From Planctellipticum variicoloris (GTDB lineage Bacteria > Planctomycetota > Planctomycetia > Planctomycetales > Planctomycetaceae), in the NCBI RefSeq assembly GCF_030622045.1, contig NZ_CP130886.1, forward strand, positions 1,313,557 through 1,377,556: a DNA stretch of 64,000 nt, written 5' to 3'. This document shows, piece after piece, positions 12,625 through 26,056 of the stretch. The notes under the pieces are model-generated. The model did no database searches and was not told where the DNA came from. It worked only from the letters and a program-made list of their open reading frames with translations. Every line of letters starts with the position of its first letter. Within the stretch, counting starts at the first letter, position 1. A program made the translations under genes and the position numbers.

Positions 12625-15264
12625 GTGTCGAGCGAACAGCAGCGATATCAGATCCTCGAAAAGATCGGCGCCGGCAGCTTCGCCACCGTCTATCGCGCCC
12701 GCGATGTCGAACTGGGACGCGAAGTCGCCATCAAGCAGCTCCATCAGCAGTTTCTGGAGGATCCGCGACAGCTCGCCCGGTACTGGCTCGAAGCCCAGCT
12801 CCTGGCGTCGCTCCACCATCCGAACATCGTCACCATCTTCGACGTCGACCGCGAACGCGGATGGCTGATCATGGAGCTCATGCAGGGGAATCTCGCCGAG
12901 CGACTCGGCGGCAAACCGATGGACCTCCGAGCGCTGCGGGCCACCCTGGCCCACTGCCTGCGGGCTCTCAAATATCTCCACGAGCAGGGCGTGATCCATG
13001 GCGATATCAAGCCCGGCAACATGATGATCGACTCGCGCAAACGAGTCAAAATCGGCGATTTCGGTCTCGCCCGACGGGCCAGCGACGACGAAGGGAGCCT
13101 GCTCAAAGGAACGACCAGGTACATGGCCCCCGAAATGGTTTCCGATGACTTCGGCGACGTCGGCCCCGCCAGCGATCTCTATTCGCTCGGCTTTTCCGCC
13201 TACAGCCTGCTTTGCGGCGAGAACTTCGACCAGCTCTTCCCCGGCCTGAACGCTTTCGGCCGCGATCGCCAGATCGCCTGGATGATGTGGCACGCCGCCC
13301 CCGACCGCCGACTCCCGGAAATCCGCCGCGTGCTCGAAGGAGTCCCCGAAGACATCGCGCGCGTCGTTCAGAAGCTGACCGAGAAAGACCAGTCCCTGCG
13401 TTACAAGTCCGCAGACGAAGCCCTCTCGGATCTGCAGGTCGATCTCAAGGTCGTCGGCGGCGGCGACGAGCCTCCGCCCTCCGATGACTCCGGTGCGCGC
13501 CGCAGAGTCTGGGTGGCCGCGGGGGCGCTTGGCTTCTCGCTGGTCATGAGCGCGGCCATGCTCTTCTGGCCGTCGGGCAAGCCCCCGTCGGTTCGCTCAG
13601 AACACACCGTCAACGGCATCCTGCACAAAATCCTGCCGAACGATAGCCGGATCATCGTCCAGGATGCTCACAGCGGCGCCCTCGAAGAATTTGAACTTCC
13701 GCGCAAACAGAAGATCTTCCTGCAGAATGACAAGCGGAATATTCTGCTCCGCGAACTGCAGCCCGGCGATCTGCTCACCATCGAACTGGACGCCAATCGA
13801 ACCAGCCTGGCGCTCGGCATCAACGTTGATCGGCCGGTCCGGAGCCACGGCGTCGTCAAGCAGCTCAATCTGCCCGAACAACGGCTCGTGATCACGCTCT
13901 CCGAGGGCTCCCTGCGCGACGACCTGCCCGTTCACGTTCCCGCGGCCGCCATCCTCGAACTCAACGGCGCCCGGGCAAAGTTGGCTGATCTCCAGGTCGG
14001 CGACCACGTCGCCTTCGCGCACGTCACCGAGTCTGGGGGGCGCGCCAGCCGGTTGCTGCAATCCCTCCGTGCCTCCCGGCTGGTTGGCACGGTGGGCAGC
14101 CTGCGCGAAGTTCTGGACGACGGCCGTCGACTCCGGATCCAGGTCGGACCATCAGGCGGCGCAACGCTCGATCTGCCGCTGGCGGACAACTGCCGGATCA
14201 GCGTTAATGGCGAAGTCACCCGTGCAGGCGTTTCATTGACTTCGGCGGACCTCGCTCCGGGAGACCGGTTGTCGCTCAAGCACGACACGCTGATTCGTGA
14301 ACTGCAGGTGACACGCAGCGAGACCCTCGACGGCGTCATCGAAAAACTCGACCCGGCAGGCCGCGAGCTGCTGGTGATCGCTCCTGATGGCCAGCGTCAG
14401 ACTGTCCTGCTCGATCCGCAGACCGAAGTTACGCTGGGGCTGGAAAAAGTGACGCAATCGTCGTTACGCCGATTCGATGCCGTGCGAGTGAGCGGTTTCA
14501 CTTCGAGCGGAACTCTGCGGGCCTCCGCCATCGACGCCCGCCGACCGACGCAGGCGGACCGCTGGGCGGTGGTCATCGGGACGCAGTCGTATACAGACAC
14601 CTCGCTCAGCCCGGTCAAGACCGCTCTCGACGATGCACGGCTCGTACATTCCGCGCTGCTGAAACGCTATGCCCTCTCCGACCACCGCGGGTCGCTTCTT
14701 CTCGATGCGACGCTGGAGGAATGGAAGCAGACGTTCGAGAACGTGCTGACGGCGGCCAAGCCGGCTACGCAGGTCATCATCTATATCACCGGTCACGCTT
14801 ACCGAACTGACGACGGCAAGGTCTACCTCGCACCGCGCGACTTCGATTCCGCCCGGATGACGGAAACCGGCCTGCCGCTGGCGTGGCTGATCGAACGGCT
14901 GGAAGCCTGCCCGTCGACCGACAAGCTCCTCCTCTGGGACTGTACTCCGGAAGGGAGCGGGCGCGATCTGCAGCGTCAGCCGGCCGGAAAGGAAATCCTT
15001 GATGAGCTGAATTCGCCCCTCCAGTCCACGACGATCGTCATGAGTTGCGACGCCGATCAGCGAAGCCACGTCTGGAACGAACGCAGACGAGGATTGTTCG
15101 CCGCCAGCCTTGCGGAGGCCTTTGACGGCGCCGCCGACGCCGACCGCGACCTCCACTTGACGGCCCCCGAATTGATGAACGCGCTGACTCCAGCTATGAG
15201 GGACGCCGAGGCACGGACGGGCCACCCCCAGACCCCGGTCCTGATCCGACCTCAGGCCCGATAG
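12625..15264 (+). CDS. Hanks-type Ser/Thr protein kinase with one TM and a C-terminal caspase-like (peptidase C14/CHAT-type) domain
   Basis: Kinase subdomains: GAGSFATVYRA, AIKQL, HPNIV, HGDIKPGNMMI, DFGLAR, TTRYMAPE. TM helix VWVAAGALGFSLVMSAAMLFW. C-terminal WAVVIGTQSY...DDARLVHSALL...QVIIYITGHAY...VYLAPRDFD...KLLLWDCTPEGSG has a caspase-like His/Cys dyad context. Confidence 0.85.
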   Translation: MSSEQQRYQILEKIGAGSFATVYRARDVELGREVAIKQLHQQFLEDPRQLARYWLEAQLLASLHHPNIVTIFDVDRERGWLIMELMQGNLAERLGGKPMDLRALRATLAHCLRALKYLHEQGVIHGDIKPGNMMIDSRKRVKIGDFGLARRASDDEGSLLKGTTRYMAPEMVSDDFGDVGPASDLYSLGFSAYSLLCGENFDQLFPGLNAFGRDRQIAWMMWHAAPDRRLPEIRRVLEGVPEDIARVVQKLTEKDQSLRYKSADEALSDLQVDLKVVGGGDEPPPSDDSGARRRVWVAAGALGFSLVMSAAMLFWPSGKPPSVRSEHTVNGILHKILPNDSRIIVQDAHSGALEEFELPRKQKIFLQNDKRNILLRELQPGDLLTIELDANRTSLALGINVDRPVRSHGVVKQLNLPEQRLVITLSEGSLRDDLPVHVPAAAILELNGARAKLADLQVGDHVAFAHVTESGGRASRLLQSLRASRLVGTVGSLREVLDDGRRLRIQVGPSGGATLDLPLADNCRISVNGEVTRAGVSLTSADLAPGDRLSLKHDTLIRELQVTRSETLDGVIEKLDPAGRELLVIAPDGQRQTVLLDPQTEVTLGLEKVTQSSLRRFDAVRVSGFTSSGTLRASAIDARRPTQADRWAVVIGTQSYTDTSLSPVKTALDDARLVHSALLKRYALSDHRGSLLLDATLEEWKQTFENVLTAAKPATQVIIYITGHAYRTDDGKVYLAPRDFDSARMTETGLPLAWLIERLEACPSTDKLLLWDCTPEGSGRDLQRQPAGKEILDELNSPLQSTTIVMSCDADQRSHVWNERRRGLFAASLAEAFDGAADADRDLHLTAPELMNALTPAMRDAEARTGHPQTPVLIRPQAR

Positions 15265-15444: not shown

Positions 15445-15519
15445 CGGGATGTAGCGCAGCCTGGCTAGCGCACTTGCTTGGGGTGCAAGAGGTCGTGGGT
15501 TCAAATCCCGCCATCCCGA
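15445..15519 (+). tRNA. tRNA-Pro (anticodon GGG)
   Basis: A 75-nt cloverleaf folded by hand. Acceptor CGGGATG/CATCCCG, D stem GCGC/GCGC, anticodon stem CTTGC/GCAAG with loop TTGGGGT (anticodon GGG), T arm GTGGG-TTCAAAT-CCCGC, discriminator A. CCA is not encoded. Confidence 0.75.
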
Positions 15520-15566
15520 CTTGAATCACGAACGGCTCGTCGCAACTGAACTGCGACGAGCCGTTA
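15515..15566 (+). repeat. 52-bp direct repeat, copy 1. It overlaps the last 5 nt of tRNA-Pro and contains a 14-bp perfect hairpin (AACGGCTCGTCGCA/TGCGACGAGCCGTT).
   Basis: CCCGACTTGAATCACGAACGGCTCGTCGCAACTGAACTGCGACGAGCCGTTA recurs at 18036..18087 with one mismatch. Confidence 0.8.
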
Positions 15567-15790: not shown

Positions 15791-16801
15791 CTACTTCGCT
15801 CGCTCGTACATGATGCTCATGATCGCGCTCTCTTTGCCGTCGGGGCCGGGGGCGTAGATGGTGAAGTCGATGTTGTTCTTGTCTTTCATCTCGGTGACGA
15901 ATTTCATCCTCTGAATTTCTCCGTCAGCTCCGCGGGACTCGCCGACCATGACCATCTGGTTGCCTTCGTAGTTGCCGCTCATTTGCAAAGGCGTCGTTGA
16001 CATCGAATCGATCCAAACGGCGTAATATTTCTTCGATTGCGGATCGTATGTGTCCAGACGTCGACCGGAGAAGTCCCCTTTCTCGCTCTTGAAATCCCAC
16101 ACCAGCCACAGGTCGCCAAGGTCCATCTTCATCGACATGGTGCCCTTCGATTTGGGTCCGCTGGTCGGCTTGACCGTGGCCTTCCACGTGCCTTCCATCT
16201 CTTTCAGTTTGGCGTGCTCCGGTGACCGCTTGACTGCCTCGAATTTGTCGTGTGCCCTTTCCTTGTCCGGATCGTCCGCACCCGTTCTGGGCTGAAATAA
16301 TTCGACGGGATTGCCTGACGGGTCGTCGAGGAGGATTTGGGAACCGCCCGGGCCGGTGATGATGTCATTACGGAACTTGAGGCCCGCTTCGCGAAGCCGC
16401 TTAACCTCTGCTTCGAGGTCGTCTACCTGGATGTGAATCCGGTTCCAGCCGCCGGGAACGGGTTGGCGGCCGTCCGGCATTTCCCTGCGACCGGAGCTGG
16501 TCTTGCCGCTGAGCAAGAGCCGCACCCCATTACGGGTGACGGATGCGAAAGCCGGGCTGGCGTCATGGTCAAGCGCGAAGCCGAGCTGTGTCGTGTAAAA
16601 CTTGATGGCGGTGGGAACGTCGTCGATCATGTAGCGGATGCTAACCGTGGACATGGGCCTGCCCTCCTTCTGTATCGTGTCCTTCGATGCCTTCGTGTCG
16701 TCGCTCTCCACCTCGTTGTAACCACCTGCAGAAATCCCGAGGCAAAGCAACATTACCGGAGGAATGAGCTTGTTCATGAGACTGCCTTTCTTCTTCTCCA
16801 A
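15791..16801 (-). CDS. Secreted VOC (glyoxalase/bleomycin-resistance fold) domain protein with a C-terminal DUF1579-like domain
   Basis: Signal peptide MNKLIPPVMLLCLGISAGG. VOC-like VSIRYMIDDVPTAIKFYTTQLGFALDHD...IHIQVDDLEAEVKRLREAGLKF...ILLDDPSGNPVELFQ. C-terminal EGTWKATVK...DLGDLWLVWDFK resembles DUF1579. GC is lower than the flanks. Confidence 0.6.
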   Translation of the reverse strand: MEKKKGSLMNKLIPPVMLLCLGISAGGYNEVESDDTKASKDTIQKEGRPMSTVSIRYMIDDVPTAIKFYTTQLGFALDHDASPAFASVTRNGVRLLLSGKTSSGRREMPDGRQPVPGGWNRIHIQVDDLEAEVKRLREAGLKFRNDIITGPGGSQILLDDPSGNPVELFQPRTGADDPDKERAHDKFEAVKRSPEHAKLKEMEGTWKATVKPTSGPKSKGTMSMKMDLGDLWLVWDFKSEKGDFSGRRLDTYDPQSKKYYAVWIDSMSTTPLQMSGNYEGNQMVMVGESRGADGEIQRMKFVTEMKDKNNIDFTIYAPGPDGKESAIMSIMYERAK

Positions 16802-16997: not shown

Positions 16998-17825
16998 CTA
17001 GCCGATCAGAGGGACATGATTTCGCAGGAGGCGATTGCTGCGTAGCCCGATATAGTCAGTTGGGCTTAGATCGGAGAACTCCAGAAAATCGTGGATCAGG
17101 TGAGACTGGTCGTAATAGCCGCAGACCAGCGCCACCTGGGCCCAGTTCGGCGTCGCGGTTTGATCCACGACCTCCCGGGCACGCTGGAACCGCAGGACGC
17201 GACAGAAGAGCTTCGGCGTCAAGCCAACTTGAGCCGTAAATACTTGAATAAACCGTCGCTGGCTGAGTCCGACGCGCTTCGCGGCCGCACGAACCGAGTC
17301 GCCGATGCCCGCCGGTCCAAAGATATCGAGGGCGAGAGAAACCGCCGGGTGTTCCGATGGCCATCGCAACCGAGTTTCAAGCATTTCTTCCAGGATTCGA
17401 AATCGTTTCAGAGGCGTCGCGGCGGAACACATTCTCTCTTGAAGCTCGACAGCAGACCTGCCCCATAGGTCCTCCAGACCAAGGTGACTGTTCGCCAGTT
17501 CGCCGGTGGCGCCGCCAAAAAAGGGAAACGCACCACCGGGCCTAAAATGAACGCCCGTCATTGAAGCATGTTGCGTCGGATCGATAACAAACGCACCAGC
17601 ATACGTTCCCGAGACGACAATACCCGGAAATCGCCGGCAACGCTCTGGCTCTGCTGAGCCATAAATTCGAACTTCATCCTCACGAAGGTTAACGACGAGT
17701 TCAATTGTTCCGCTCGGCAGAATTCGCTCTCTCGGGTGAGAGGGCGCGTCGGTGCAGTCCCAGAAATGGTGGATGAAGTTCCCAAGCGGCGCTGCCGGCT
17801 CGTGAGTAACAAGACGCATCCTCAT
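16998..17825 (-). CDS. AraC-family transcriptional regulator
   Basis: C-terminal AraC-type HTH (VGLSQRRFIQVFTAQVGLTPKLFCRVLRFQRARE...VALVCGYYDQSHLIHDFLEFSDLSPTDY). The N-terminal half is a cupin-like sensing region. Confidence 0.75.
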   Translation of the reverse strand: MRMRLVTHEPAAPLGNFIHHFWDCTDAPSHPRERILPSGTIELVVNLREDEVRIYGSAEPERCRRFPGIVVSGTYAGAFVIDPTQHASMTGVHFRPGGAFPFFGGATGELANSHLGLEDLWGRSAVELQERMCSAATPLKRFRILEEMLETRLRWPSEHPAVSLALDIFGPAGIGDSVRAAAKRVGLSQRRFIQVFTAQVGLTPKLFCRVLRFQRAREVVDQTATPNWAQVALVCGYYDQSHLIHDFLEFSDLSPTDYIGLRSNRLLRNHVPLIG

Positions 17826-18035
17826 GGCCTTTCAGTTATGTTGGGCGTCAAGCGACTGGATGGCCGACGACAACCATCATTTGCCCTTTGTGATCGGATT
17901 GATTTTACGGTGGAATAGGTCACCCGTCAGACTTATCAGGATCACTCTGGCCCGTAAAGTCTTTTGCTGCCGGGAGAAGCGCAGTCGGCCACGTCCGGAA
18001 ACATCCCGGAAGAAGTTCAATAGCCGTCCTGTCGC

Positions 18036-18087
18036 CCCGACTTGAATCACGAACGGCTCGTCGCAACTGATCTGCGACGAGCCGTTA
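18036..18087 (+). repeat. 52-bp direct repeat, copy 2 (att-like right boundary of the 2.5-kb islet)
   Basis: Same 52 bp as 15515..15566 with one substitution (A to T in the hairpin loop). Confidence 0.8.
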
Positions 18088-18629
18088 CTCATTTGCCACC
18101 CTCATCTTATCAGTGGATGGCGCTGTCCAATTGATTTGGTTCAAAGGTCCGGCCCAAACTGGACCGGCGGAGACGGGACGACCGTAACGTGCAGGCGAGC
18201 AATGAGTCGCCGAGGTCGTATTCTGTCACCAGCATCGGAACCCTTGACGATCTGACGATGGCGACATCGTCGCTCCAGCCATCCGAGCGGCGGACAGTGT
18301 GTCGGAGCGACTCGGCGATTCACCAAAGCAGTTCTCCCCCAAGTTCCGTTACTTGGAGCCGCAACGGCGCCGAATCGCTCCCTGTCGGGCCTCAGAATTC
18401 GCCGGCGTAAGCACGCATTCGTCCGATGAGCCACAATTTCCCGCCAAACAAGAGCAAGCTGGCAAGAACCGGACGGAGCGCCAGGCATGGCAGTGCAGAA
18501 GGCTTGATCCCTTCCGGCGTCGAGCCCGACGCTCCATAATGCGGCTGCGTGGTGCAATGATCGACTTGGCAGCTTGGACTGCCACAAGCTGGGCTCGTTT
18601 GACGACGTCCTGAGAAGTGGACGCGAGAA

Positions 18630-21002
18630 ATGGGGAGCAAATCGCAACGCCAGAAGGAACGGCACACGCGAAAGCGGCAGGAAAAACGGAAAGCCCAGAA
18701 ACAGTCGCAGTCGCAGTCGCCGGCGCGACGTCCGGAGATCCAGCGACACGACGATGTGCCGTTGGGCAGCAACGCACGTCATCGCCAGCGGCTGTCGCAA
18801 CAAACTCCGCGCGCCTGGCCGGATGAAACCCTCGAAGACGTTGCCGTCTTTGACGATTCGGCGCTCTCTGCCTTGCCGTCGGAATTGGCTGAGCAGGTCT
18901 CCGCGATTCGCGCCGCACTGCAGGACGCGTGCGAATCTCGCGGAGAAGTCGCCGTCGGACGCCTCTCCGTGATTTCCCGCGGCAGTCCGCTCAGTGAATG
19001 GCGGCTGTTCACTCGCGGACTGGTGGACTGGCTGGCGGAGGACGCCGAAGCTGCGAACGAAGCCTGGAAGCGTTTGAACCCCGAGCGGCGTCCCGGGCGA
19101 ATCGCGACGGCCATGATGGTCGCGCTGCGTTCCGATCTCGAGGACGTTTCTCACTCTCAGGGGACCGGCGAACCGTGCGACGAGTCGCAGTCGCCGTCGT
19201 GGAACCGCTGGGACGATCAACTGCTTTATCACGCCAAGCTCCTGCGGCGCGTCCGTTTTGATCGGGCCGCCATTCGCATCGCGGAAGCTGGCCTGAGCGT
19301 CCCGGAGGAATCGCGGGAGCTCCTTCTGGGGCCGAAGAAGCTGCAGTGGTTGCGGCGGTTTGTGGCGGAATATGGGGAGACCGAACCGGATCTGGCCGCC
19401 GCACTCTCGCAGGTCGCTCTCGGTCGAGCGTTCGCTCAGGAGTTCGGCAATCTCTTTGAAGAAGCGGCCAAATTGTTCCAGGGGCCGCGGCACGATCCCC
19501 GGAACCGGTTGCTCTCCTTTTTCTATTTCAGCCGATTCGCAGATGATTCTGTCGCGGAGAAAAAAGCAGAATGCCTGCTGGACAAGTATCTGAAAGAAGA
19601 TCTGCCCCGGAACGAGGCCCTGTCGGCGCCGCTCCGCGGCGCGATCGCCAGCCAGATCCACCTCAACGAAGCACTCTCGCTGATGCAGTCCGACCGCGGC
19701 GGCGGAATGATATCGCTAATGTTCGGGCCGCCCGAAAATCCCAAGGCGATTCGAGAAAATCTGCGGGCTGCGGTGAAGGCGGATTCCTCCAATCGCCCGG
19801 CGCACGAGGCTTACGTCGAGTGGATCGAATCCAAACTGGACGACGACCGGCTGGCGAAACCGAAGCGGAAGCCCCTCGAGGATGAGCTGGCCGCGGCCAT
19901 GAGCAGTTGGTCGAAGGCGCTGCCCGAGGACGTCGAGCCGCGATTGTGGCTGGTCGACCATCTGCTCGAAAACGAGTGTCTGGAGGACGCGAAGCCGCAC
20001 GTCGATTTTCTCGCCGCCTCCCGGCTGGACGATCCGCGCGTGCGCGCGACCCCCTGGAAGTGGCAGCTCCTGGAGGCGATGCGGCTGTGCCGCCGGAAGG
20101 CGTGGCTCGCAGACGTCCCGGCGCGATTGGACGAAGCCGAAAAGCTGTGGCCCGCATGGCTGCCGAAACAATGGCTGCCTTACCTGAGAGCCGCCGCCAC
20201 ATTGCGCAGCGGCCGAACCGAAGCGTTTGAGGACCAGCGCCGACAGATCTGTGAGGAATCGGGCCGGGGCCGGGATTCGCTGGCTGATGCCTGCATGATG
20301 CTGGGAGCGGCTCAACAGATGCGAGTTCCCGCGACCGATCTCGCACCATTGCGTGCGGCATTGGATGGCGTCTTAAAGCGGCTCGGCGGATTGCCGTTGG
20401 ATGAGTTGCTCGATGCCGGGGGCTTTTTCTGGGATTTGCAGCGCATTCAACTGCTCTACCCGGCCTACCGCATGCACGGAAAAAATATCGGAAAGGCGTT
20501 GTTGGCCCAATTGGCGAAGGCTTCCCGGCTGGTCCTGGAAGGCATGAATGACGAACGGATTCACAAGGCCTTCCTCTGGTGTTCGGAACATCGATTCTGG
20601 CCCGACAACTACGAAATCAAGTGGCCACCCTGCTACAAGGAAACCGCGATCCAGCGCCACCCGATTTTCGCTGCGGCCAAACTCAACGCTTATCTTCGGG
20701 GACGTTATCATTGGAGGTCTGAAGAATATCGGGAACTGGGGCCGATGTTGCGCGAGGCCGCCCAACTGCAGCGGGACGCTTACTATCGGTATTGGTTTGT
20801 CGCGCTGGCCGACGAGTTCGACGACGTGCTGGCAACGGATTCGATGCGGTTCTTCGGTTTTCCCTTCGGCAATGCATTCGGGACCGGCCACGAGGGCGAT
20901 TCCGAGGACGATGAAGGCGACGACCTGGATTTCGAGCCGAACTGCAATTGTGCCACGTGTCAGGCGGCCAGGCGGGCCGCTCAGAAATCGCAGCCGTTTT
21001 GA
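18630..21002 (+). CDS. Large hypothetical protein. Highly basic N-terminus, predicted helical body, C-terminal CNCATC motif. First gene of the Hsp70 operon.
   Basis: 790-aa ORF with protein-like composition. N-terminus MGSKSQRQKERHTRKRQEKRKAQKQ. Separated by 18 nt from the downstream J-like gene. No motif I recognise. Confidence 0.6.
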   Translation: MGSKSQRQKERHTRKRQEKRKAQKQSQSQSPARRPEIQRHDDVPLGSNARHRQRLSQQTPRAWPDETLEDVAVFDDSALSALPSELAEQVSAIRAALQDACESRGEVAVGRLSVISRGSPLSEWRLFTRGLVDWLAEDAEAANEAWKRLNPERRPGRIATAMMVALRSDLEDVSHSQGTGEPCDESQSPSWNRWDDQLLYHAKLLRRVRFDRAAIRIAEAGLSVPEESRELLLGPKKLQWLRRFVAEYGETEPDLAAALSQVALGRAFAQEFGNLFEEAAKLFQGPRHDPRNRLLSFFYFSRFADDSVAEKKAECLLDKYLKEDLPRNEALSAPLRGAIASQIHLNEALSLMQSDRGGGMISLMFGPPENPKAIRENLRAAVKADSSNRPAHEAYVEWIESKLDDDRLAKPKRKPLEDELAAAMSSWSKALPEDVEPRLWLVDHLLENECLEDAKPHVDFLAASRLDDPRVRATPWKWQLLEAMRLCRRKAWLADVPARLDEAEKLWPAWLPKQWLPYLRAAATLRSGRTEAFEDQRRQICEESGRGRDSLADACMMLGAAQQMRVPATDLAPLRAALDGVLKRLGGLPLDELLDAGGFFWDLQRIQLLYPAYRMHGKNIGKALLAQLAKASRLVLEGMNDERIHKAFLWCSEHRFWPDNYEIKWPPCYKETAIQRHPIFAAAKLNAYLRGRYHWRSEEYRELGPMLREAAQLQRDAYYRYWFVALADEFDDVLATDSMRFFGFPFGNAFGTGHEGDSEDDEGDDLDFEPNCNCATCQAARRAAQKSQPF

Positions 21003-21020
21003 CGACGAGGAGCTTCACCG

Positions 21021-21371
21021 ATGAATCCGTCGACGTCCGCTGAAACGACCTCCGATCCCTTCGCAATCCTGGGCGTGTCGCGAGACGCCGGCGAGGCGGA
21101 GGTCCGCGCCCGGTATCTGGAGCTGGTGAAGCAGTTTCCTCCGGACCGGGAACCCGAACGGTTCCGCGAAATCCGCTCGGCCTTCGAGGCGGTCAAGGAT
21201 CCGCTGTCGATCGCCCGACGCCTGGTCCAGCCCCCTCCCGAGGAAGTTCCTCGGTGGTCCGATGCGATCGAAGCGCAACGGCGGAACCCACCCCGGTTGT
21301 CCCCTGCGTTCCTGTTGAGCCTGGGCAATCGGGCTTCGGACAATTCCGCAACTCCGCCGGCGCCGGCCTGA
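21021..21371 (+). CDS. J-domain-like co-chaperone with a degenerate HPD motif (reads PPD), no DnaJ C-terminal domains
   Basis: DPFAILGVSRDAGEAEVRARYLELVKQFPPDREPERFREIRSAFEAV matches J-domain helices II-III, with PPD where HPD is expected. Only 116 aa. Confidence 0.6.
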   Translation: MNPSTSAETTSDPFAILGVSRDAGEAEVRARYLELVKQFPPDREPERFREIRSAFEAVKDPLSIARRLVQPPPEEVPRWSDAIEAQRRNPPRLSPAFLLSLGNRASDNSATPPAPA

Positions 21372-21440
21372 ACCAGCGCGCCCGGAATTCCAATTGCGGC
21401 GACGATCGGCCCCTTTGCGACATCGTGAGACAGACGCTCC

Positions 21441-22160
21441 ATGAATGACTCGATGTTCCAGCGGGAATCGTCCGGTGAACCACCCTGTGGGGAAACCCCG
21501 TCGCGCGACGAGGCGCCGCCGCAGTTTGGAGCGGTGGACATCGTCGAAGCGTTCACCGCGATGCGGCACGAGTGGCGCGGACAAACCAAAGAAAGCCGCG
21601 CGCTGGCCGAGCAGATTCAGGCCGCGGTGACGAACCTTCAATCGCTGGAATCGAAACTGCTCGTCCGCGCCGCCGACAGCCGTCCCGACGATTCAGCCGC
21701 TGCCAGACAACTCGCGCTGCTCATCGTTGAGACGGATCATCAGCTCTCCCGGGCGGTCGCCGCGATCGCGCAATGGGAAAGGAATCGAAGACTCCGCGAG
21801 GAGGCGGACGCGAATGCGGTCGACCTCTACTTCGCGGGGATGAACGGAGTGGCCCGCTGGTTTGCCCGTCCGTTGCTGACGTTCGTCGTCGAACAACGCC
21901 GGGTTCAAAGTCCGGCCGCCGAGAATCCCGCGATCGAAGGGCTGAACCTGGTCCTGACGCGACTTCGCCGCGCGATGAATGACCGCGACATCGATCGACT
22001 CGATACCGAGGGAAGCGAATTTGACGCGAACACCATGCGCGCCATCGGCGCCGTCGAATCGGTGGATTGTCCCTCCGGACACGTCGTGGAGCAGCTTGCG
22101 CCGGCCTACCGCTGGCAGGGTCGGCTGTTGCGATTCGCGGATGTGAGAGTGGCGAAGTAA
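21441..22160 (+). CDS. grpE: GrpE-like nucleotide-exchange factor
   Basis: C-terminal GrpE signature TEGSEFDANTMRAIGAVESVD...GHVVEQLAPAYRWQGRLLRFADVRVAK. Coiled-coil N-terminal half. Confidence 0.75.
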   Translation: MNDSMFQRESSGEPPCGETPSRDEAPPQFGAVDIVEAFTAMRHEWRGQTKESRALAEQIQAAVTNLQSLESKLLVRAADSRPDDSAAARQLALLIVETDHQLSRAVAAIAQWERNRRLREEADANAVDLYFAGMNGVARWFARPLLTFVVEQRRVQSPAAENPAIEGLNLVLTRLRRAMNDRDIDRLDTEGSEFDANTMRAIGAVESVDCPSGHVVEQLAPAYRWQGRLLRFADVRVAK

Positions 22161-22201
22161 TTTCGACCGGGGACATGGACGTATCACAGGAGGAGAAACG
22201 T

Positions 22202-24022
22202 ATGGCCGATCTTCGAGATCCCGTCGTCGGCATCGACCTGGGGACCACCAACAGCGTGGTGGCGATCGTCATCGACGGGCAGCCGCGCGTCCTGGAGGAA
22301 GCGGGAGAGAAGCTTCTGCCGTCGGTGGTGGGGATCAATCCGCAGGGGCAACTGGTCACAGGCGTGATCGCGCAGAACCAACTGGCCGCGTTCCCCGACC
22401 GCACCGTGGCGTCGATCAAACGCCGGATGGGGCGCATGGATCCCGTTCCGCTCGGCGACCAGACGTTCACGCCGCCGGAAATCAGCGCCATGATTCTCCG
22501 TCGCCTGCGGGACCGGGCCAGCCGCGCAATCGGACAGCCCGTGAATCGGGCGGTGATCACGGTTCCGGCATTCTTCGACGAGAACCAGCGCCAGGCGACC
22601 CGCGAAGCGGCGGCGCTCGCGGGTCTGTCGGTCGAACGCATCATCAACGAACCGACCGCCGCAACTCTGGTCTATCACGTCGGCTCGCAGGATCGGAAGC
22701 AGATCGCGGTCTACGATTTCGGCGGCGGAACCTTCGACGTCTCGATTGTCCGCATGGAGGGGGGCGTTATCGAAGTTCTCAGCAGCCGCGGCGACGTTCG
22801 CCTGGGAGGTGACGATCTCGACGAGGTGCTGGCCAATTACGTCGCCGATCAGTTCCAGGCCGAGCAGGGGTTGGACTTGCGCGAGAGCCCGCAGGCGCGG
22901 TATCGCTTATGGCAGGCGTGCGAACGGGCCAAGCGGCGGCTTTCGACCGAGGAGACCGCGCAGATTGCGGAAGAGTTCATCGCCGAAAAAAACGGCGAAC
23001 CCGTGCACCTGACGGCGACGGTCACGCGAGAAGAGTTCGAAGAGCTGATCGAGCCGTTCGTCGCGCGTACAATCCAGAGCCTCGACGAAGCGCTGCGCGA
23101 GGCAGGGCTGACGATTCACCAAATTGACGATCTGGTGCTGGTGGGAGGCTCCACGCGCATTCCGCTGGTCGAAGAACGTCTGCGCGAGGAGTTTTTGCGG
23201 GAACCCAGTCGCGCGGTCGACCCCGATCTGGCGGTCGCCCTGGGAGCCGCCGTGCAGGCCGCCATGATCGACGGTCGATCCGTGGGACCCGTACTGGTGG
23301 ACGTGACCGGACATACCCTCGGGATCGAGGCCTGCGTCGGGATGACGTTCGCCGGGCCGCAAATGGAATTCTCCCCGATCATCCATCGGAACACCCCCCT
23401 TCCCGCGCGCTACGAACAAGCCTACTCGACCATGCACGACGACCAGGATTCGGCGGAAATCCACGTGCTTCAGGGGGAACGGCCCGAGGTGCACCGCAAT
23501 CGGTCGATCGGACGGTTCCGGCTCGATCTCAAAGCGGGCGGCGGGGACCGCAGCAAGATCGTCGTCCGATTCGATCTGACGCTGGACGGCACGCTCAAAG
23601 TGACCGCGACGCAACCCGCGACGGGCCTCAGCCGAGTTCTGGCCGTCGACAATGCGCTCAGCCAGTTCCAGGCCGACGAGCGAGACCGCGCGGAATCGCG
23701 TCTGGATGCGATGTTCGGCTCCTCCGAGGAATTCGCCGATGAAGGGGAGTTTCCTCCTTCTTCCAACCAATGGGACGACCGGGACTCCGATCGCCCGAGC
23801 ACGCCGACTGCCGCCGATTCCCAGACCGCGGAATCGAGATTTCCGGAAGCCGTCTCGCTTCTCAAAAAGGCGGAGATGTTGAAAACGTCCGTCGAAGGCC
23901 AGGACGCACGGGACATCGAGTCGCTTTGCGAGAATCTGAAGAACGCCATGGCGGTCGATGATCGCGCGGCCGTGGCCGGTCTCGGCGAGGAACTGGAGGA
24001 TATTCTATTCTATGTCCGATGA
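22202..24022 (+). CDS. Hsp70-family ATPase (DnaK paralog, 606 aa)
   Basis: VVGIDLGTTNSVVAIV, VITVPAFFDENQRQATREAAALAGLSVERIINEPTAATLVY, IAVYDFGGGTFDVSIV, LVLVGGSTRIP. Start is the ATG at 22202; the ORF track start at 22067 lies inside grpE. Confidence 0.9.
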   Translation: MADLRDPVVGIDLGTTNSVVAIVIDGQPRVLEEAGEKLLPSVVGINPQGQLVTGVIAQNQLAAFPDRTVASIKRRMGRMDPVPLGDQTFTPPEISAMILRRLRDRASRAIGQPVNRAVITVPAFFDENQRQATREAAALAGLSVERIINEPTAATLVYHVGSQDRKQIAVYDFGGGTFDVSIVRMEGGVIEVLSSRGDVRLGGDDLDEVLANYVADQFQAEQGLDLRESPQARYRLWQACERAKRRLSTEETAQIAEEFIAEKNGEPVHLTATVTREEFEELIEPFVARTIQSLDEALREAGLTIHQIDDLVLVGGSTRIPLVEERLREEFLREPSRAVDPDLAVALGAAVQAAMIDGRSVGPVLVDVTGHTLGIEACVGMTFAGPQMEFSPIIHRNTPLPARYEQAYSTMHDDQDSAEIHVLQGERPEVHRNRSIGRFRLDLKAGGGDRSKIVVRFDLTLDGTLKVTATQPATGLSRVLAVDNALSQFQADERDRAESRLDAMFGSSEEFADEGEFPPSSNQWDDRDSDRPSTPTAADSQTAESRFPEAVSLLKKAEMLKTSVEGQDARDIESLCENLKNAMAVDDRAAVAGLGEELEDILFYVR

Positions 24023-24230
24023 GTCCGCTTTCCGTTGCCCCGTCTGCCGCGCGGCGCAGACATTGCGCGAGACCTGTCGCCGTTGCCAGGCGGATCTTCG
24101 GCTGGTGATGCGCGCTCATCGCCGGCTGGCGTACTTGAAACACCAGCGAACGCAAGCGCAGACGACCGGCGAAGACGACCGCGAACGGAGTCTCGCCGCC
24201 GAACTGCACTGGCTGGCGCCGGCCCGCTGA
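24012..24230 (+). CDS. Small zinc-ribbon protein, overlapping the Hsp70 stop by 11 nt
   Basis: MSDESAFRCPVCRAAQTLRETCRRCQADL (CxxC...CxxC). ATG at 24012 overlaps the Hsp70 stop (TGA 24020-24022). Confidence 0.5.
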   Translation: MSDESAFRCPVCRAAQTLRETCRRCQADLRLVMRAHRRLAYLKHQRTQAQTTGEDDRERSLAAELHWLAPAR

Positions 24231-24240
24231 CGTCGCGGCG

Positions 24241-24981
24241 TCAGTTGCCTTCCGCGATGTCTCGTGCACTCACGAGCTTCAAACGCCCGAAAGGATTGTG
24301 CATCGGGCTCCGGGCATCGAAGTCGTCGCTCGTTCGAGCCACGACCTGGAATCGCGGTCCCCGTTCGTCCGCCAGGATGTGGCCGACGTCAACTGGTCGA
24401 CCGCTGCTGCAGATGTAGCGGATCATTTCGATAATCGTCCGGCCTTGCTCGTCGACGTCGGAAGGACTCATCAGGAGATCGGGGAATCCTATCGCCTGCA
24501 TGCCCATCGTATACACCTGCCGCCGACCGCGGACGATCGAAGCGAATGCGAAGCTGATGGCGTCCGGCCCTCCGTCATCCGTCATCTTGATCCAATCCTC
24601 GCCCCCATGAGCCAGGGCGCTGCTGTCGACGAACACGCCCGCCCCGCCGGCTTGCACGATGGCTGCGCCGGCTTGCATCATTGTCCTGGCCGACTCCAAA
24701 GAACCTCCGGGGCCGCTCAACCCCACGTTTACGGTGTATCGGGCGACGACTGCCAGTTCGTCGTCCTTGGGAGGCCGGCGGCACGACGATTCAAAGATCT
24801 GGGGAAACTCGCCGTCCGGCGGCATCGGGATGAAATCGATCGACGTATCGTCCGGCAGAAACAAGGTGTCGGGAGCCAGGCGAAAACCATCCGGCAGACG
24901 CTCCAGAAGCTCGCCAGGATGCGACCAGCTCCCGGGAATGCGCAGCGTAATTCTGAGAGAGTTGTGCTTTATCCCGTTCAT
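24241..24981 (-). CDS. Hypothetical protein
   Basis: 246-aa ORF with coding-like codon usage, convergent with the zinc-ribbon gene. No recognisable motif. Confidence 0.45.
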   Translation of the reverse strand: MNGIKHNSLRITLRIPGSWSHPGELLERLPDGFRLAPDTLFLPDDTSIDFIPMPPDGEFPQIFESSCRRPPKDDELAVVARYTVNVGLSGPGGSLESARTMMQAGAAIVQAGGAGVFVDSSALAHGGEDWIKMTDDGGPDAISFAFASIVRGRRQVYTMGMQAIGFPDLLMSPSDVDEQGRTIIEMIRYICSSGRPVDVGHILADERGPRFQVVARTSDDFDARSPMHNPFGRLKLVSARDIAEGN

Positions 24982-25370: not shown

Positions 25371-25881
25371 TTGCGCTGCTCGGCCTGTGGATCTCGTGAC
25401 GTCCATCCCCAGGGATCAGTCTCGCGTGAGTTCAAAACGCTCCCGATCGGTTCCCAAACCGTCCGGCTGCAACTCGCCGTGCCGCGGGTGCTCTGCCGGA
25501 CGTGTCGCCTCGAACGCCAGCGGCTGGAGGAAACGCTGCGGCTGAACGGCTCGCTGGCGAAGGCGTACTCCTTGACAGGGGATCTGCTGCAGGTCTGGGA
25601 ACACCCGGACAAGCGGACGGGCGAGCTGGTGCTGGAGCGCCGGATCCGCATGGCGGAAGCGTCGGGCATCCGGCCGCTCATCCAGCTTGCCAAGACGCTG
25701 CGCAAACACCGGCAGGACCTCCTGGCCTGGTACGACCACCCAATCTCAACGGGGTTCGCTGGAGGGGGCGAACACCAAGATCAAACTCCTGCAGCGGCAG
25801 GCGTTCGACTTTCGCGACAAGGAATTCTTCAAGCTCAGGCTGCCCGGCCTGCACTGCAGTCAGCACGCATTCGTCGGTTGA
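25371..25881 (+). pseudogene. ISL3-family transposase remnant. N-terminal zinc-finger region joined to the C-terminal tail by an internal deletion plus frameshift.
   Basis: N-terminal part: CSACGSRDVHPQGSVSREFKTLPIGSQTVRLQLAVPRVLCRTC (zf-ISL3-like). C-terminal part, in another frame: GSLEGANTKIKLLQRQAFDFRDKEFFKLRL (ISL3 tail). The roughly 300-aa catalytic core is missing. No clear terminal IRs seen. Confidence 0.65.
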
Positions 25882-26056
25882 GCCGAAATGTTTGAGTCTC
25901 CACCCGAAGAAGTCTTGAATGAACTGCGAACCTGCGGCTGGAGACGGAATTCGAGCCCGACGGATTACTACGGTTGACCGCGACATGGCCTTCGCGCCGC
26001 TCAGGTCACAACAGGTGATCGTCCCGCTCTTCCAGTGCGTGGCCGAACGGTGATGA

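What the first reader, a model, noticed from the sequence alone, without database searches (positions are those of the whole stretch)
18630..24230. Dedicated non-canonical Hsp70 operon: 790-aa basic protein, J-like (PPD), GrpE, Hsp70, and an overlapping zinc-ribbon protein
Five co-directional genes sit with gaps of 18-70 nt, and the last two overlap by 11 nt. The J-like partner is only 116 aa, with no DnaJ Gly/Phe, zinc-finger or C-terminal domains. The order J-GrpE-Hsp70 differs from housekeeping grpE-dnaK-dnaJ. The operon opens with a large uncharacterised protein that has a highly basic N-terminus and a C-terminal Cys motif, a plausible dedicated client, adaptor or effector. Specialised Hsp70-J-NEF triads coupled to one partner protein are barely characterised in bacteria.
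Basis: partly seen in the sequence, partly recalled or inferred. Interest (0 to 1): 0.6.

Follow-up and report, generated by a model that had tools for sequence, protein, structure and literature searches.

The report
Planctomycete five-gene dedicated Hsp70 operon
Planctomycete bacteria carry a strictly conserved five-gene operon encoding a second, specialised Hsp70 chaperone with its own exchange factor, a J-like partner lacking the catalytic histidine, a small zinc-ribbon protein and a large uncharacterised repeat scaffold; nothing in the searched literature describes it and its cellular job is unknown.

Summary
Five co-directional ORFs lie at 18630-24230, with gaps of 18, 69 and 41 nt and an 11-nt overlap. 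They encode a 790-aa protein, a 116-aa J-like protein, a 239-aa GrpE, a 606-aa Hsp70 and a 72-aa zinc-ribbon protein.

All 54 loci baited with the 790-aa protein keep the order big-J-GrpE-Hsp70-Zn wherever the contig allows. So do 4 very divergent family members and 4 of 4 loci baited with the J-like protein. Flanking genes are not conserved. All named members are Planctomycetota, from at least three orders.

The Hsp70 keeps its ATPase motifs and substrate-binding domain. It scores below NCBIfam's DnaK and HscA cut-offs and is about 38% identical to E. coli DnaK. The J domain has [P/S]P[D/E] in place of HPD in every orthologue. The 790-aa protein is a confident all-alpha TPR/HAT-like solenoid with no specific homologue.

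Best reading: a dedicated, non-housekeeping Hsp70 machine with the solenoid as adaptor or obligate partner. I could not show a canonical dnaK in the same genome; that evidence is indirect. No description was found in the literature searched. Verdict: new variant of a known kind, moderate to good interest.

The parts
18509..18540 (+). Promoter-like element (CCCTTCC ... CATAAT), about 95 nt upstream of the first gene. It is conserved among the closest (Schlesneria-like) relatives.
   Evidence: MAFFT alignment of 350-nt upstream regions. The sigma-70 consensus scan did not detect it. Its role as a promoter is inferred only.
18630..21002 (+). 790-aa all-alpha TPR/HAT-like solenoid. It has a basic N-terminal helix (aa 4-28), an F/G-containing acidic disordered tail (aa 742-764) and a C-terminal CxCxxC motif followed by a helix. 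No Pfam or NCBIfam family matches.
21021..21371 (+). 116-aa J-like protein. It has a J-domain fold (aa 13-69) with PPD in place of HPD, plus a conserved C-terminal motif, PPxL(S/T)xxFLLSLGNR.
   Evidence: Pfam DnaJ 34.3 bits. PPD aligns on HPD. [P/S]P[D/E] in all orthologues, and S100-L-G-N-R104 invariant. AF2 gives a J fold and Foldseek finds J domains.
21441..22160 (+). 239-aa divergent GrpE paralogue (nucleotide exchange factor) with an extended N-terminus.
   Evidence: Pfam GrpE 61.2 bits over aa 157-239; all NCBIfam GrpE equivalogs fall far below their cut-offs; the best PDB match is Geobacillus GrpE, E = 5e-4.
22202..24022 (+). 606-aa DnaK-like Hsp70 paralogue. ATPase motifs, interdomain linker and substrate-binding domain are intact. 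Relative to E. coli DnaK it has a roughly 24-aa deletion in NBD subdomain IB, a 9-aa insertion in SBD-beta and a short lid. The C-terminal motif ELDDxLFYV is conserved.
   Evidence: HSP70 479 bits; DnaK 507 < 648; HscA 425 < 620; alignment of 38 orthologues with E. coli DnaK; 38% identity; the best PDB match is Geobacillus DnaK.
24012..24230 (+). 72-aa basic (pI 9.7) zinc-ribbon protein, (F/L)(R/Q)CPxCRAxQ-x5-CRRCxADLxL, followed by a long helix. Its start overlaps the Hsp70 stop by 11 nt.
   Evidence: four invariant Cys; present in 37 of 38 loci that have enough downstream sequence; only generic zinc-ribbon Pfam hits below cut-off, and no zf-DNL hit; no PDB relative.

Best explanation
This is a vertically inherited five-gene operon, so far found only in Planctomycetota. 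It encodes a dedicated Hsp70 machine that is paralogous to, and separate from, the housekeeping DnaK/DnaJ/GrpE system.

The likely mechanism has four parts.
1. The Hsp70 is a working ATPase with a normal peptide-binding domain, and its ADP/ATP exchange is driven by its own GrpE paralogue. The motifs are shown; activity is inferred.
2. The 790-aa TPR/HAT-like solenoid is the specificity element. It is a scaffold or adaptor that tethers the chaperone to one target. Its basic N-terminal helix may bind a nucleic-acid- or ribosome-like surface. Its Arg/Trp-rich concave surfaces may dock the conserved Hsp70 tail ELDDxLFYV, as eukaryotic TPR co-chaperones dock EEVD. This part is inferred.
3. The J-like protein binds the Hsp70 through helix II/III. 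It lacks the HPD histidine, so it most likely acts as a regulatory or structural J-like subunit, or as a weak co-evolved activator. Its invariant hydrophobic-basic C-terminal motif FLLSLGNR is a plausible ligand of the Hsp70 substrate-binding domain. This part is inferred.
4. The zinc-ribbon protein overlaps the Hsp70 stop and is probably translationally coupled to it. It is a stoichiometric partner or escort of the Hsp70. This part is inferred.

The cellular process served is unknown.
For: Synteny:
- 54 of 54 genome loci are colinear on one strand. J is found in 53, GrpE in 51, Hsp70 in 47 and Zn in 41. All misses but one fall at contig ends; in L023 the Zn ORF is truncated.
- Divergent members keep the same order.
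- The reverse test with the J-like protein as bait gives 4 of 4.
- No flanking gene family occurs in more than 5 loci.

Inheritance:
- Identities of the five proteins to the window co-vary across loci (r = 0.74-0.98), which points to joint vertical descent.
- Named members come from Planctomycetales, Pirellulales and Kolteriales.

Hsp70:
- GIDLGTTNS, the K70 and E171 equivalents, DFGGGTFD, the linker VLVDVT and the SBD-beta core are at least 90% conserved.
- It falls below the DnaK and HscA equivalog cut-offs.

J-like protein:
- J-domain fold.
- No His at the HPD position in 53 + 43 sequences.
- HPD is the primary element for ATPase stimulation (PMC10410713).

Solenoid:
- High-confidence model that resembles TPR/HAT scaffolds, including Hsp70-tail-binding TPRs such as Tom71, STI1, Sec72 and PP5.

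Other:
- All five proteins are soluble, with no transmembrane segment.
- There are no PADLOC hits.
- A conserved promoter-like element sits just upstream of gene 1.
Against: - No genome carrying the operon could be searched whole, so the co-existing canonical dnaK/dnaJ/grpE is inferred, not shown.
- R. baltica SH1, whose canonical heat-shock set is documented, did not appear among homologues of the 790-aa protein. No single organism is therefore shown to have both systems.
- There are no interaction, expression or phenotype data.
- The ELDDxLFYV motif is followed by 1-3 further residues, unlike a strict C-terminal EEVD.
- The CxCxxC motif of the solenoid is missing in the most divergent branch (L057).
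- Co-transcription is inferred from spacing and synteny only.
Confidence: 0.68

Rival explanations
1. The 790-aa solenoid is the dedicated client rather than an adaptor. It would be a large repeat protein, or the complex it builds, whose folding, assembly or disassembly needs its own Hsp70/GrpE/J-like/Zn set. The chaperone genes would then be co-encoded assembly factors.
For: - It is the first gene of the operon and is always present.
- Its conserved F/G-containing and acidic disordered tail (aa 730-765) could be an Hsp70-binding segment.
- Large solenoids are typical chaperone-dependent folders (general knowledge).
Against: - A single soluble client rarely justifies a full Hsp70 cycle with its own NEF.
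- The solenoid's many invariant surface-type Arg and Trp residues suggest that it binds something itself.
- The computations run here do not distinguish client from adaptor.
Confidence: 0.2
2. This is simply the organism's housekeeping DnaK/GrpE/DnaJ system in an unusual gene order. The 790-aa and zinc-ribbon genes would be neighbours linked only by lineage-specific operon history.
For: - No other Hsp70 is present in the 64-kb window or in about 1 Mb of related loci. This is uninformative at genome scale.
- The Hsp70 has all features of an active, full-length DnaK-type chaperone.
Against: - It scores below NCBIfam's DnaK equivalog cut-offs (507 against 648, and 496 against 822) and below the GrpE cut-offs.
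- It is 38% identical to E. coli DnaK.
- The J partner has no HPD, G/F region, zinc-finger or C-terminal domains in any orthologue.
- There is no CIRCE element.
- The canonical planctomycete heat-shock proteins have different sizes and loci (R. baltica).
- A dnaK multigene family is reported for Planctomycetales.
- No R. baltica SH1 homologue of the 790-aa protein was retrieved in a word-index-limited search. If the operon really is missing there, that distribution would be unlike near-universal dnaK (98.9% of genomes, PMC11019930).
Confidence: 0.06
3. It is a conflict or anti-phage system of the kind in which Hsp70, GrpE and DnaJ- or TPR-fused proteins act as NTP-dependent regulators of an effector (Kaur et al. 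2020).
For: Hsp70 + GrpE + DnaJ/TPR neighbourhoods have been described in GTPase-centred conflict systems of actinobacteria and firmicutes (PMC7159879). The genomic context of the operon is variable.
Against: - There is no GTPase, vWA, tubulin or effector domain in the operon or in the window's flanks, and no flanking gene family is shared by more than 5 loci.
- No PADLOC model matches any of the five proteins.
- The operon was found once in each locus examined, and its divergence tracks taxonomy (r up to 0.98). This is the opposite of the patchy, horizontally transferred pattern of defence islands.
- The 790-aa protein is highly conserved rather than diversifying (47% mean column identity across orders).
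Confidence: 0.04

Closest known systems
Myxococcus xanthus grpS (MXAN_6672) - sglK/MxDnaK2 (MXAN_6671) operon
   Same: A second, non-heat-induced DnaK-type Hsp70 is co-transcribed with its own GrpE paralogue placed upstream of it. It has a specialised, non-essential role (PMC11019930).
   Different: - The Myxococcus unit is bicistronic, and none of its JDP genes neighbours either dnaK. No TPR or zinc-ribbon partner is mentioned there.
- MxDnaK2 is a PRK00290-type DnaK that can replace E. coli DnaK. The window Hsp70 falls below that model's cut-off.
HscA-HscB-IscU (Fe-S cluster Hsp70 system) and HscC-DjlB/DjlC
   Same: These are bacterial Hsp70 paralogues dedicated to one partner or client, each encoded next to its own small J protein. 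DjlB and DjlC carry a variant HPE triad (PMC10410713).
   Different: - HscA and HscC do not use GrpE (own knowledge).
- HscB and DjlB/C keep the histidine.
- The window Hsp70 scores below the HscA cut-offs.
- No isc genes are nearby.
- This system adds a GrpE, a TPR solenoid and a zinc ribbon.
Mitochondrial presequence translocase motor (mtHsp70, Mge1/GrpE, Pam18, J-like Pam16, zinc-finger Tim15/Zim17/Hep1)
   Same: The parts list is similar: Hsp70 + GrpE-type NEF + HPD-less J-like subunit + small tetracysteine zinc protein that accompanies the Hsp70, all tethered by a scaffold (composition from PMC9695410).
   Different: - No HPD-bearing Pam18 equivalent is encoded here.
- None of 31 Zn-family members matches zf-DNL.
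- The scaffold is a TPR solenoid, not Tim44.
- There is no membrane component.
- The resemblance is functional analogy only.
Eukaryotic TPR co-chaperones and receptors that bind the Hsp70 C-terminal tail (Hop/STI1, Tom70/71, Sec72, PP5, DNAJC3/P58IPK)
   Same: The fold class is shared, and these proteins appear among the structural matches. The operon's Hsp70 has a conserved acidic-hydrophobic C-terminal motif.
   Different: - The motif is ELDDxLFYV plus 1-3 further residues, not EEVD-COOH.
- No carboxylate-clamp residues were mapped.
Cyanobacterial DnaK3-DnaJ3 pair (own knowledge, not tested here)
   Same: A lineage-specific extra DnaK paralogue encoded with its own J protein and assigned a specialised role.
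   Different: DnaJ3 has an HPD motif. No dedicated GrpE, TPR solenoid or zinc ribbon is in that operon, to my knowledge. The window Hsp70 is below the NCBIfam cut-offs of PRK13410 and PRK13411; that these two models represent the cyanobacterial DnaK paralogues is my own attribution, not stated by the tool.

Membership tests
Hsp70 superfamily (PF00012) | Full-length match above Pfam's gathering score, with the actin-like ATPase motifs and a substrate-binding domain. | tested here: met
   479.4 bits against 20.6, profile positions 1-590 of 599. Phosphate-1/2 and adenosine motifs, the K70 and E171 equivalents, the linker and SBD-beta are conserved in 38 orthologues.
Housekeeping DnaK (NCBIfam equivalogs NF001413 / TIGR02350) | Score at or above the curated equivalog cut-off. 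| tested here: not met
   507.1 against 648, and 496.2 against 822.55. Identity to E. coli DnaK is 38%.
Housekeeping DnaK system | Partnered with a full-length DnaJ (HPD, G/F region, zinc finger, C-terminal domains) and under heat-shock control (CIRCE/HrcA or sigma-32). | tested here: not met
   The only J gene encodes 116 aa with PPD. The window has no CIRCE element, and no sigma-32-like promoter lies upstream. Expression under heat shock was not tested.
Housekeeping DnaK system | It is the only Hsp70/GrpE pair in the genome. | not testable with these tools
Indirect evidence only.
HscA (Fe-S assembly Hsp70; NF003520 / TIGR01991) | Score above the cut-off, and an hscB/iscU/fdx neighbourhood. 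| tested here: not met
   425 against 620, and 421.5 against 708.55. No isc genes occur in the flanks.
J-domain proteins (PF00226) | Four-helix J-domain fold. | tested here: met
   Pfam 34.3 against 27.8. AF2 gives helices I-IV with pLDDT 88-93. Foldseek hits are all J domains, with target-normalised TM up to 0.72.
J-domain proteins (functional JDPs) | Invariant His-Pro-Asp between helices II and III. | tested here: not met
   PPD aligns on HPD. The position is P or S, never H, in 53 locus-derived and 43 database orthologues.
GrpE (PF01025) | Match above the gathering score; C-terminal beta-domain and helical dimer stalk. | tested here: met
   61.2 against 25.8, covering profile positions 83-165 only. 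All NCBIfam GrpE equivalogs are far below their cut-offs (<= 42.7 against >= 137), so this is a divergent paralogue.
Hep1/Zim17 Hsp70 escort proteins (zf-DNL, PF05180) | DNL-type zinc finger sequence family. | tested here: not met
   None of the 31 Zn-family members matches zf-DNL at E <= 1; only generic zinc-ribbon models match, below cut-off. There is no PDB relative. The function could still be analogous.
TPR / HAT repeat solenoids | Helical-hairpin repeat superhelix; Pfam TPR/HAT repeat matches. | tested here: inconclusive
   [not shown]
Known anti-phage defence systems (PADLOC-DB 2.0) | Any component matching a defence-system model. | tested here: not met
   No hits for any of the five proteins at E <= 0.01.
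GTPase-centric Hsp70-GrpE conflict systems (Kaur et al. 2020) | A linked GAP1-N2-type GTPase, together with FNIII, vWA or effector components. | tested here: not met
   No such domains occur in the operon or in the window's flanks, and no flanking gene family recurs in more than 5 related loci. The system description comes from PMC7159879.

The most novel reading that the evidence does not exclude
The operon encodes a bacterial tethered Hsp70 motor, a stable five-subunit machine analogous to eukaryotic organellar or ribosome-associated Hsp70 complexes (PAM: mtHsp70-Mge1-Pam16-Zim17; RAC: Zuotin-Ssz1). The HAT/TPR solenoid would anchor the Hsp70 to a ribosome, an RNP or another large cellular structure through its polybasic N-terminal helix. 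The HPD-less J-like subunit would gate the cycle rather than stimulate it. The zinc-ribbon protein would act as an Hsp70 escort. This would be an independently evolved, or anciently shared, eukaryote-like Hsp70 architecture in Planctomycetes.
Probability: 0.12. Interest if true: 0.85.

Novelty: new variant of a known kind. Interest (0 to 1): 0.55.

Why it matters
Specialised bacterial Hsp70 systems are few (HscA/HscB, HscC/DjlB-C, MxDnaK2/GrpS). Each has shown how J proteins and partners redirect a generic ATPase.

This module differs in three ways:
- It has its own GrpE.
- Its J domain has lost the catalytic histidine in every member. Large JDP surveys filter such sequences out (PMC10410713).
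- It has two obligate partners of unknown function, a 790-aa TPR/HAT-like solenoid and a zinc-ribbon protein.

The five genes stay locked together across at least three orders of Planctomycetia while everything around them changes, so they almost certainly act as one machine.

Working the system out would test whether an HPD-less J domain can regulate a bacterial Hsp70. It would assign a function to a family of several hundred 'hypothetical proteins'. It might also reveal a process specific to planctomycete cell biology. The system is experimentally tractable: all five proteins are predicted soluble, and several cultured strains carry the operon.

Tried and rejected
- PADLOC scan of all five proteins: nothing. 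Defence system set aside.
- CIRCE/HrcA operator search in the window: 0 matches. A sigma-32-like pattern upstream: none. The sigma-70 and terminator scan gave nothing useful on the + strand.
- Rfam scan of 15-26 kb: only tRNA-Pro. No leader RNA.
- Hep1/zf-DNL identity of the zinc ribbon: no match in 31 members. Kept only as an analogy.
- Sequence-profile search of the PDB with the 790-aa family and the Zn family: nothing significant. The uS3 hits at E 0.06-0.9 are treated as noise.
- Search for conserved flanking genes as functional hints: none occurs in more than 5 loci.
- Attempt to place both systems in one organism through R. baltica. Its canonical set is documented, but no R. baltica homologue of the 790-aa protein was retrieved. 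The argument therefore stays indirect.
- Ward-Rainey 1997 (PMC179551) and Weimer 1998 (PMC107584) are not held, so they are cited only second-hand.
- Foldseek against afdb50 was unavailable.
- Literature searches for a description of this operon found none.
- No multimer prediction was possible with the tools.
Full report
**1. Observation**

The + strand between 18630 and 24230 carries five ORFs:
- 18630-21002, 790 aa.
- 21021-21371, 116 aa.
- 21441-22160, 239 aa.
- An Hsp70 ORF. The mechanical start is TTG 22067. Orthologue alignment and an AGGAGGAG ribosome-binding site put the real start at ATG 22202, giving 606 aa ending at 24022.
- A small ORF whose conserved start is ATG 24012, giving 72 aa ending at 24230.

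The gaps are 18, 69 and 41 nt, followed by an 11-nt overlap.

Pfam and NCBIfam give:
- no family for the 790-aa protein;
- DnaJ (34.3 bits, cut-off 27.8) for the 116-aa protein;
- GrpE (61.2 bits, C-terminal half) for the 239-aa protein;
- HSP70 (479 bits) for the 606-aa protein;
- only sub-threshold generic zinc-ribbon hits for the last one.

BLASTP and phmmer place 'FPPD' of the small protein on 'YHPD' of DnaJ. The basic N-terminus of the 790-aa protein (first 60 aa, pI 11.9) and its C-terminal C-x-C-x2-C motif are real. None of the five proteins has a hydrophobic segment compatible with a transmembrane helix.

**2. Co-conservation**

The 790-aa protein has more than 150 homologues at 40-99% identity. 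Every source name seen for them is 'hypothetical protein' or equivalent. A profile search of 1.84 billion representatives found 878 clusters at E <= 1e-3 and 156 at E <= 1e-30. Every member that carries an organism name is Planctomycetota.

A profile-guided scan of GTDB species genomes returned 54 loci. They come from Planctomycetales (Schlesneria, Fuerstiella and others), Pirellulales (Rhodopirellula-like, Stieleria, Roseimaritima, Rubripirellula, Neorhodopirellula, Allorhodopirellula) and Kolteriales (Kolteria novifilia).

tblastn with the five window proteins shows the same order and strand in 54 of 54 loci. J was found in 53 loci, GrpE in 51, Hsp70 in 47 and Zn in 41. All misses but one lie at contig ends; in L023 the Zn ORF is truncated. 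Among loci with at least 300 nt after the Hsp70 gene, 37 of 38 encode the CxxC-x9-CxxC-xADL protein.

Four very distant family members (230-540 bits to the profile) keep the arrangement. Where the DNA was read, they also keep the sequence hallmarks: PPE/PPD, SLLSLGN or LLALGN, ELDDxLFY, and the zinc ribbon.

I also tested the reverse direction. Four loci baited with J-like proteins from other contigs all have a 777-811-aa Pfam-less gene upstream. All four have GrpE, Hsp70 and a 79-89-aa gene downstream.

The flanks are unrelated. No window ORF outside 18.6-24.2 kb recurs next to the operon, and no flanking protein cluster occurs in more than 5 loci. Identities of the five proteins to the window co-vary across loci (r = 0.74-0.98), which indicates joint vertical inheritance.

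One caveat applies. Only the 790-aa protein and the J-like protein were used as bait, so a triad occurring without either gene would have been missed.

**3. The parts**

*Hsp70.* I aligned 38 orthologues with E. coli DnaK.
- At least 90% conserved: GIDLGTTNS, the K70 and E171 equivalents, DFGGGTFD, VGGSTRxP, the hydrophobic linker (VLVDVT) and the SBD-beta core.
- Different from E. coli DnaK: a deletion of about 24 aa in NBD subdomain IB, a 4-aa deletion in the acidic IIA loop, a 9-aa insertion in SBD-beta, and a short lid with an acidic disordered insert.
- The C-terminus carries a family-specific motif, ELDDxLFYV.
- R167, N170 and T173, which face the J-domain HPD loop in DnaK (own knowledge of PDB 5NRO), are retained.
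- The protein scores 507 bits on the DnaK equivalog (cut-off 648) and 425 on HscA (cut-off 620). It is about 38% identical to E. coli DnaK.
- Its best solved relative is Geobacillus DnaK, which also lacks the IB insert.

*GrpE.* This is a divergent paralogue. All NCBIfam equivalogs score 43 bits or less against cut-offs of 137 or more. The best PDB match is Geobacillus GrpE at E = 5e-4.

*J-like protein.*
- AF2 gives a J-domain fold for aa 13-69 (pLDDT 88-93), followed by two less confident helices. Foldseek returns only J domains.
- Helix II keeps its basic residues (R29, R31, K37).
- The HPD position is [P/S]-P-[D/E] in all 53 locus-derived and 43 database sequences. A His sometimes occurs one residue earlier, at the Tyr32 position.
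- The C-terminal motif PPxL(S/T)xxFLLSLGNR is invariant in its last five residues. It has the hydrophobic-core-plus-basic-flank character of DnaK-binding peptides (own knowledge).
- Public annotation calls the protein 'J domain-containing protein' or, wrongly, 'CbpA'.

*790-aa protein.*
- AF2 model: pLDDT 86.6, pTM 0.71, entirely helical. There is an N-terminal basic helix (aa 4-28), and three disordered stretches (aa 30-41, 177-188, 742-764).
- There is no sequence relative in the PDB.
- The invariant positions are dominated by Arg and Trp.

*Zinc-ribbon protein.* It has four invariant Cys, an invariant RRC-x-A-D-L stretch and a following amphipathic helix, and it is basic. It belongs to no Pfam family and none of its members matches zf-DNL. 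Public gene calls often miss it.

**4. Housekeeping or dedicated?**

Five points argue against a housekeeping role:
- The sub-threshold equivalog scores.
- The HPD-less, domain-less J partner. HPD is the primary element for stimulating the Hsp70 ATPase (PMC10410713).
- No CIRCE element in the window and no sigma-32-like promoter upstream.
- The canonical heat-induced set of the planctomycete R. baltica has different sizes and lies at other loci. It comprises DnaK RB9105 (704 aa, next to clpB), DnaJ RB8972 (391 aa) and GrpE RB8974 (200 aa, next to groEL).
- A dnaK multigene family is reported in Planctomycetales (Ward-Rainey 1997, seen only as cited in PMC3035269 and PMC3343278).

The weak point is that I could not search a whole genome that carries the operon. 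R. baltica SH1 did not appear among homologues of the 790-aa protein. No single organism is therefore shown to hold both systems. If R. baltica really lacks the operon, that itself argues against a housekeeping role, because dnaK is present in 98.9% of bacterial genomes (PMC11019930). However, absence was not proven.

**5. Mechanism (inferred)**

The operon most likely encodes one machine.
- An ATPase-competent Hsp70 is cycled by its own GrpE.
- The TPR/HAT solenoid acts as adaptor or scaffold. Less likely, it is the dedicated client.
- The J-like subunit docks on the Hsp70 but probably regulates it rather than stimulating it in the canonical way. It may present its FLLSLGNR motif to the substrate-binding domain.
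- The zinc-ribbon protein overlaps the Hsp70 stop and is probably translationally coupled to it, and it accompanies the Hsp70.
- The polybasic N-terminal helix and the HAT-like fold of the solenoid hint at a nucleic-acid, RNP or ribosome target.
- The conserved Hsp70 tail hints at TPR docking.

These are analogies, not tests. A conserved promoter-like element (CCCTTCC ... CATAAT, 18509-18540) about 95 nt upstream of gene 1 in the closest relatives fits a transcription unit that starts with the 790-aa gene.

**6. Comparison with known systems, and novelty**

- The closest bacterial precedent is M. xanthus grpS-MxDnaK2, which lacks the other three genes.
- HscA/HscB and HscC/DjlB-C are dedicated Hsp70 pairs, but they have no GrpE and their J proteins keep the histidine.
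- The parts list most resembles the mitochondrial PAM motor: Hsp70, Mge1, J-like Pam16 and zinc-finger Tim15/Zim17 (PMC9695410). The membership tests fail, however: there is no zf-DNL match and no Pam18 equivalent.
- The conflict systems with Hsp70-GrpE-DnaJ/TPR (PMC7159879) require a GTPase and effectors that are absent here. PADLOC finds nothing.
- Six literature searches found no description of this operon.

I rate it a new variant of a known kind, with interest 0.55. It is a robust, phylum-restricted and probably unstudied Hsp70 machine with an unusual J-like component. Its function is unknown, and its independence from the housekeeping system still needs a one-step genome check.

Noticed in passing
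window 15445-15566 and 18027-18087: A 61-nt direct repeat (92% identity) starts inside the 3' end of tRNA-Pro(GGG) and includes a GC-rich hairpin. It recurs 2521 nt downstream. The two copies bracket a DUF1579/glyoxalase gene (15791-16801, -) and an AraC-type regulator (16998-17825, -), in a stretch of lower GC (57% against about 62%). This looks like a small insertion at the tRNA that duplicated the att site or terminator.
   Followed up: partly
window 12625-15264 (+): An 879-aa Ser/Thr protein kinase (Pfam Pkinase 162 bits) with a long C-terminal extension that matches no Pfam family at E <= 0.001. It is not conserved next to the operon; weak hits occur in only 3 loci.
   Followed up: no
window 25371-25895 (+): A truncated ISL3-family transposase fragment (Zn_ribbon_ISL3 plus part of DDE_Tnp_ISL3) about 1.1 kb downstream of the operon. 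The convergent 246-aa ORF at 24241-24981 (-) has no Pfam family.
   Followed up: no
L019 (CBDIHJ010000050.1, 'Henriciella sp.' MAG) and L048 (MDLA01000163.1, 'Chromatiales bacterium ex Bugula neritina'): Two contigs labelled as Proteobacteria carry the complete planctomycete-type five-gene operon (61% and 38% identity for the 790-aa protein). They are probably mis-binned or mislabelled MAG contigs rather than cases of horizontal transfer.
   Followed up: no
L055 13266-13500; L059 about 13840-14060: Public gene calls miss the zinc-ribbon gene. In L055 a 53-aa minus-strand ORF was called instead, and in L059 nothing was called. JGI annotation names the J-like protein 'curved DNA-binding protein CbpA'.
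   Followed up: yes
window 22202-24022 (Hsp70) and 21441-22160 (GrpE): Both proteins find their best solved relatives in Geobacillus kaustophilus (DnaK 2v7y/4ani, GrpE 4ani). The Hsp70 lacks the roughly 24-aa NBD-IB segment that E. coli DnaK has. This is a possible clue to the origin of the paralogous pair.
   Followed up: no
L023 13548-13739: This is the only locus with enough downstream sequence in which the zinc-ribbon ORF is truncated: 'EKCPVCRAR' is followed by a stop. It could be a frameshift, an assembly error or a pseudogene in a Fuerstiella MAG.
   Followed up: no
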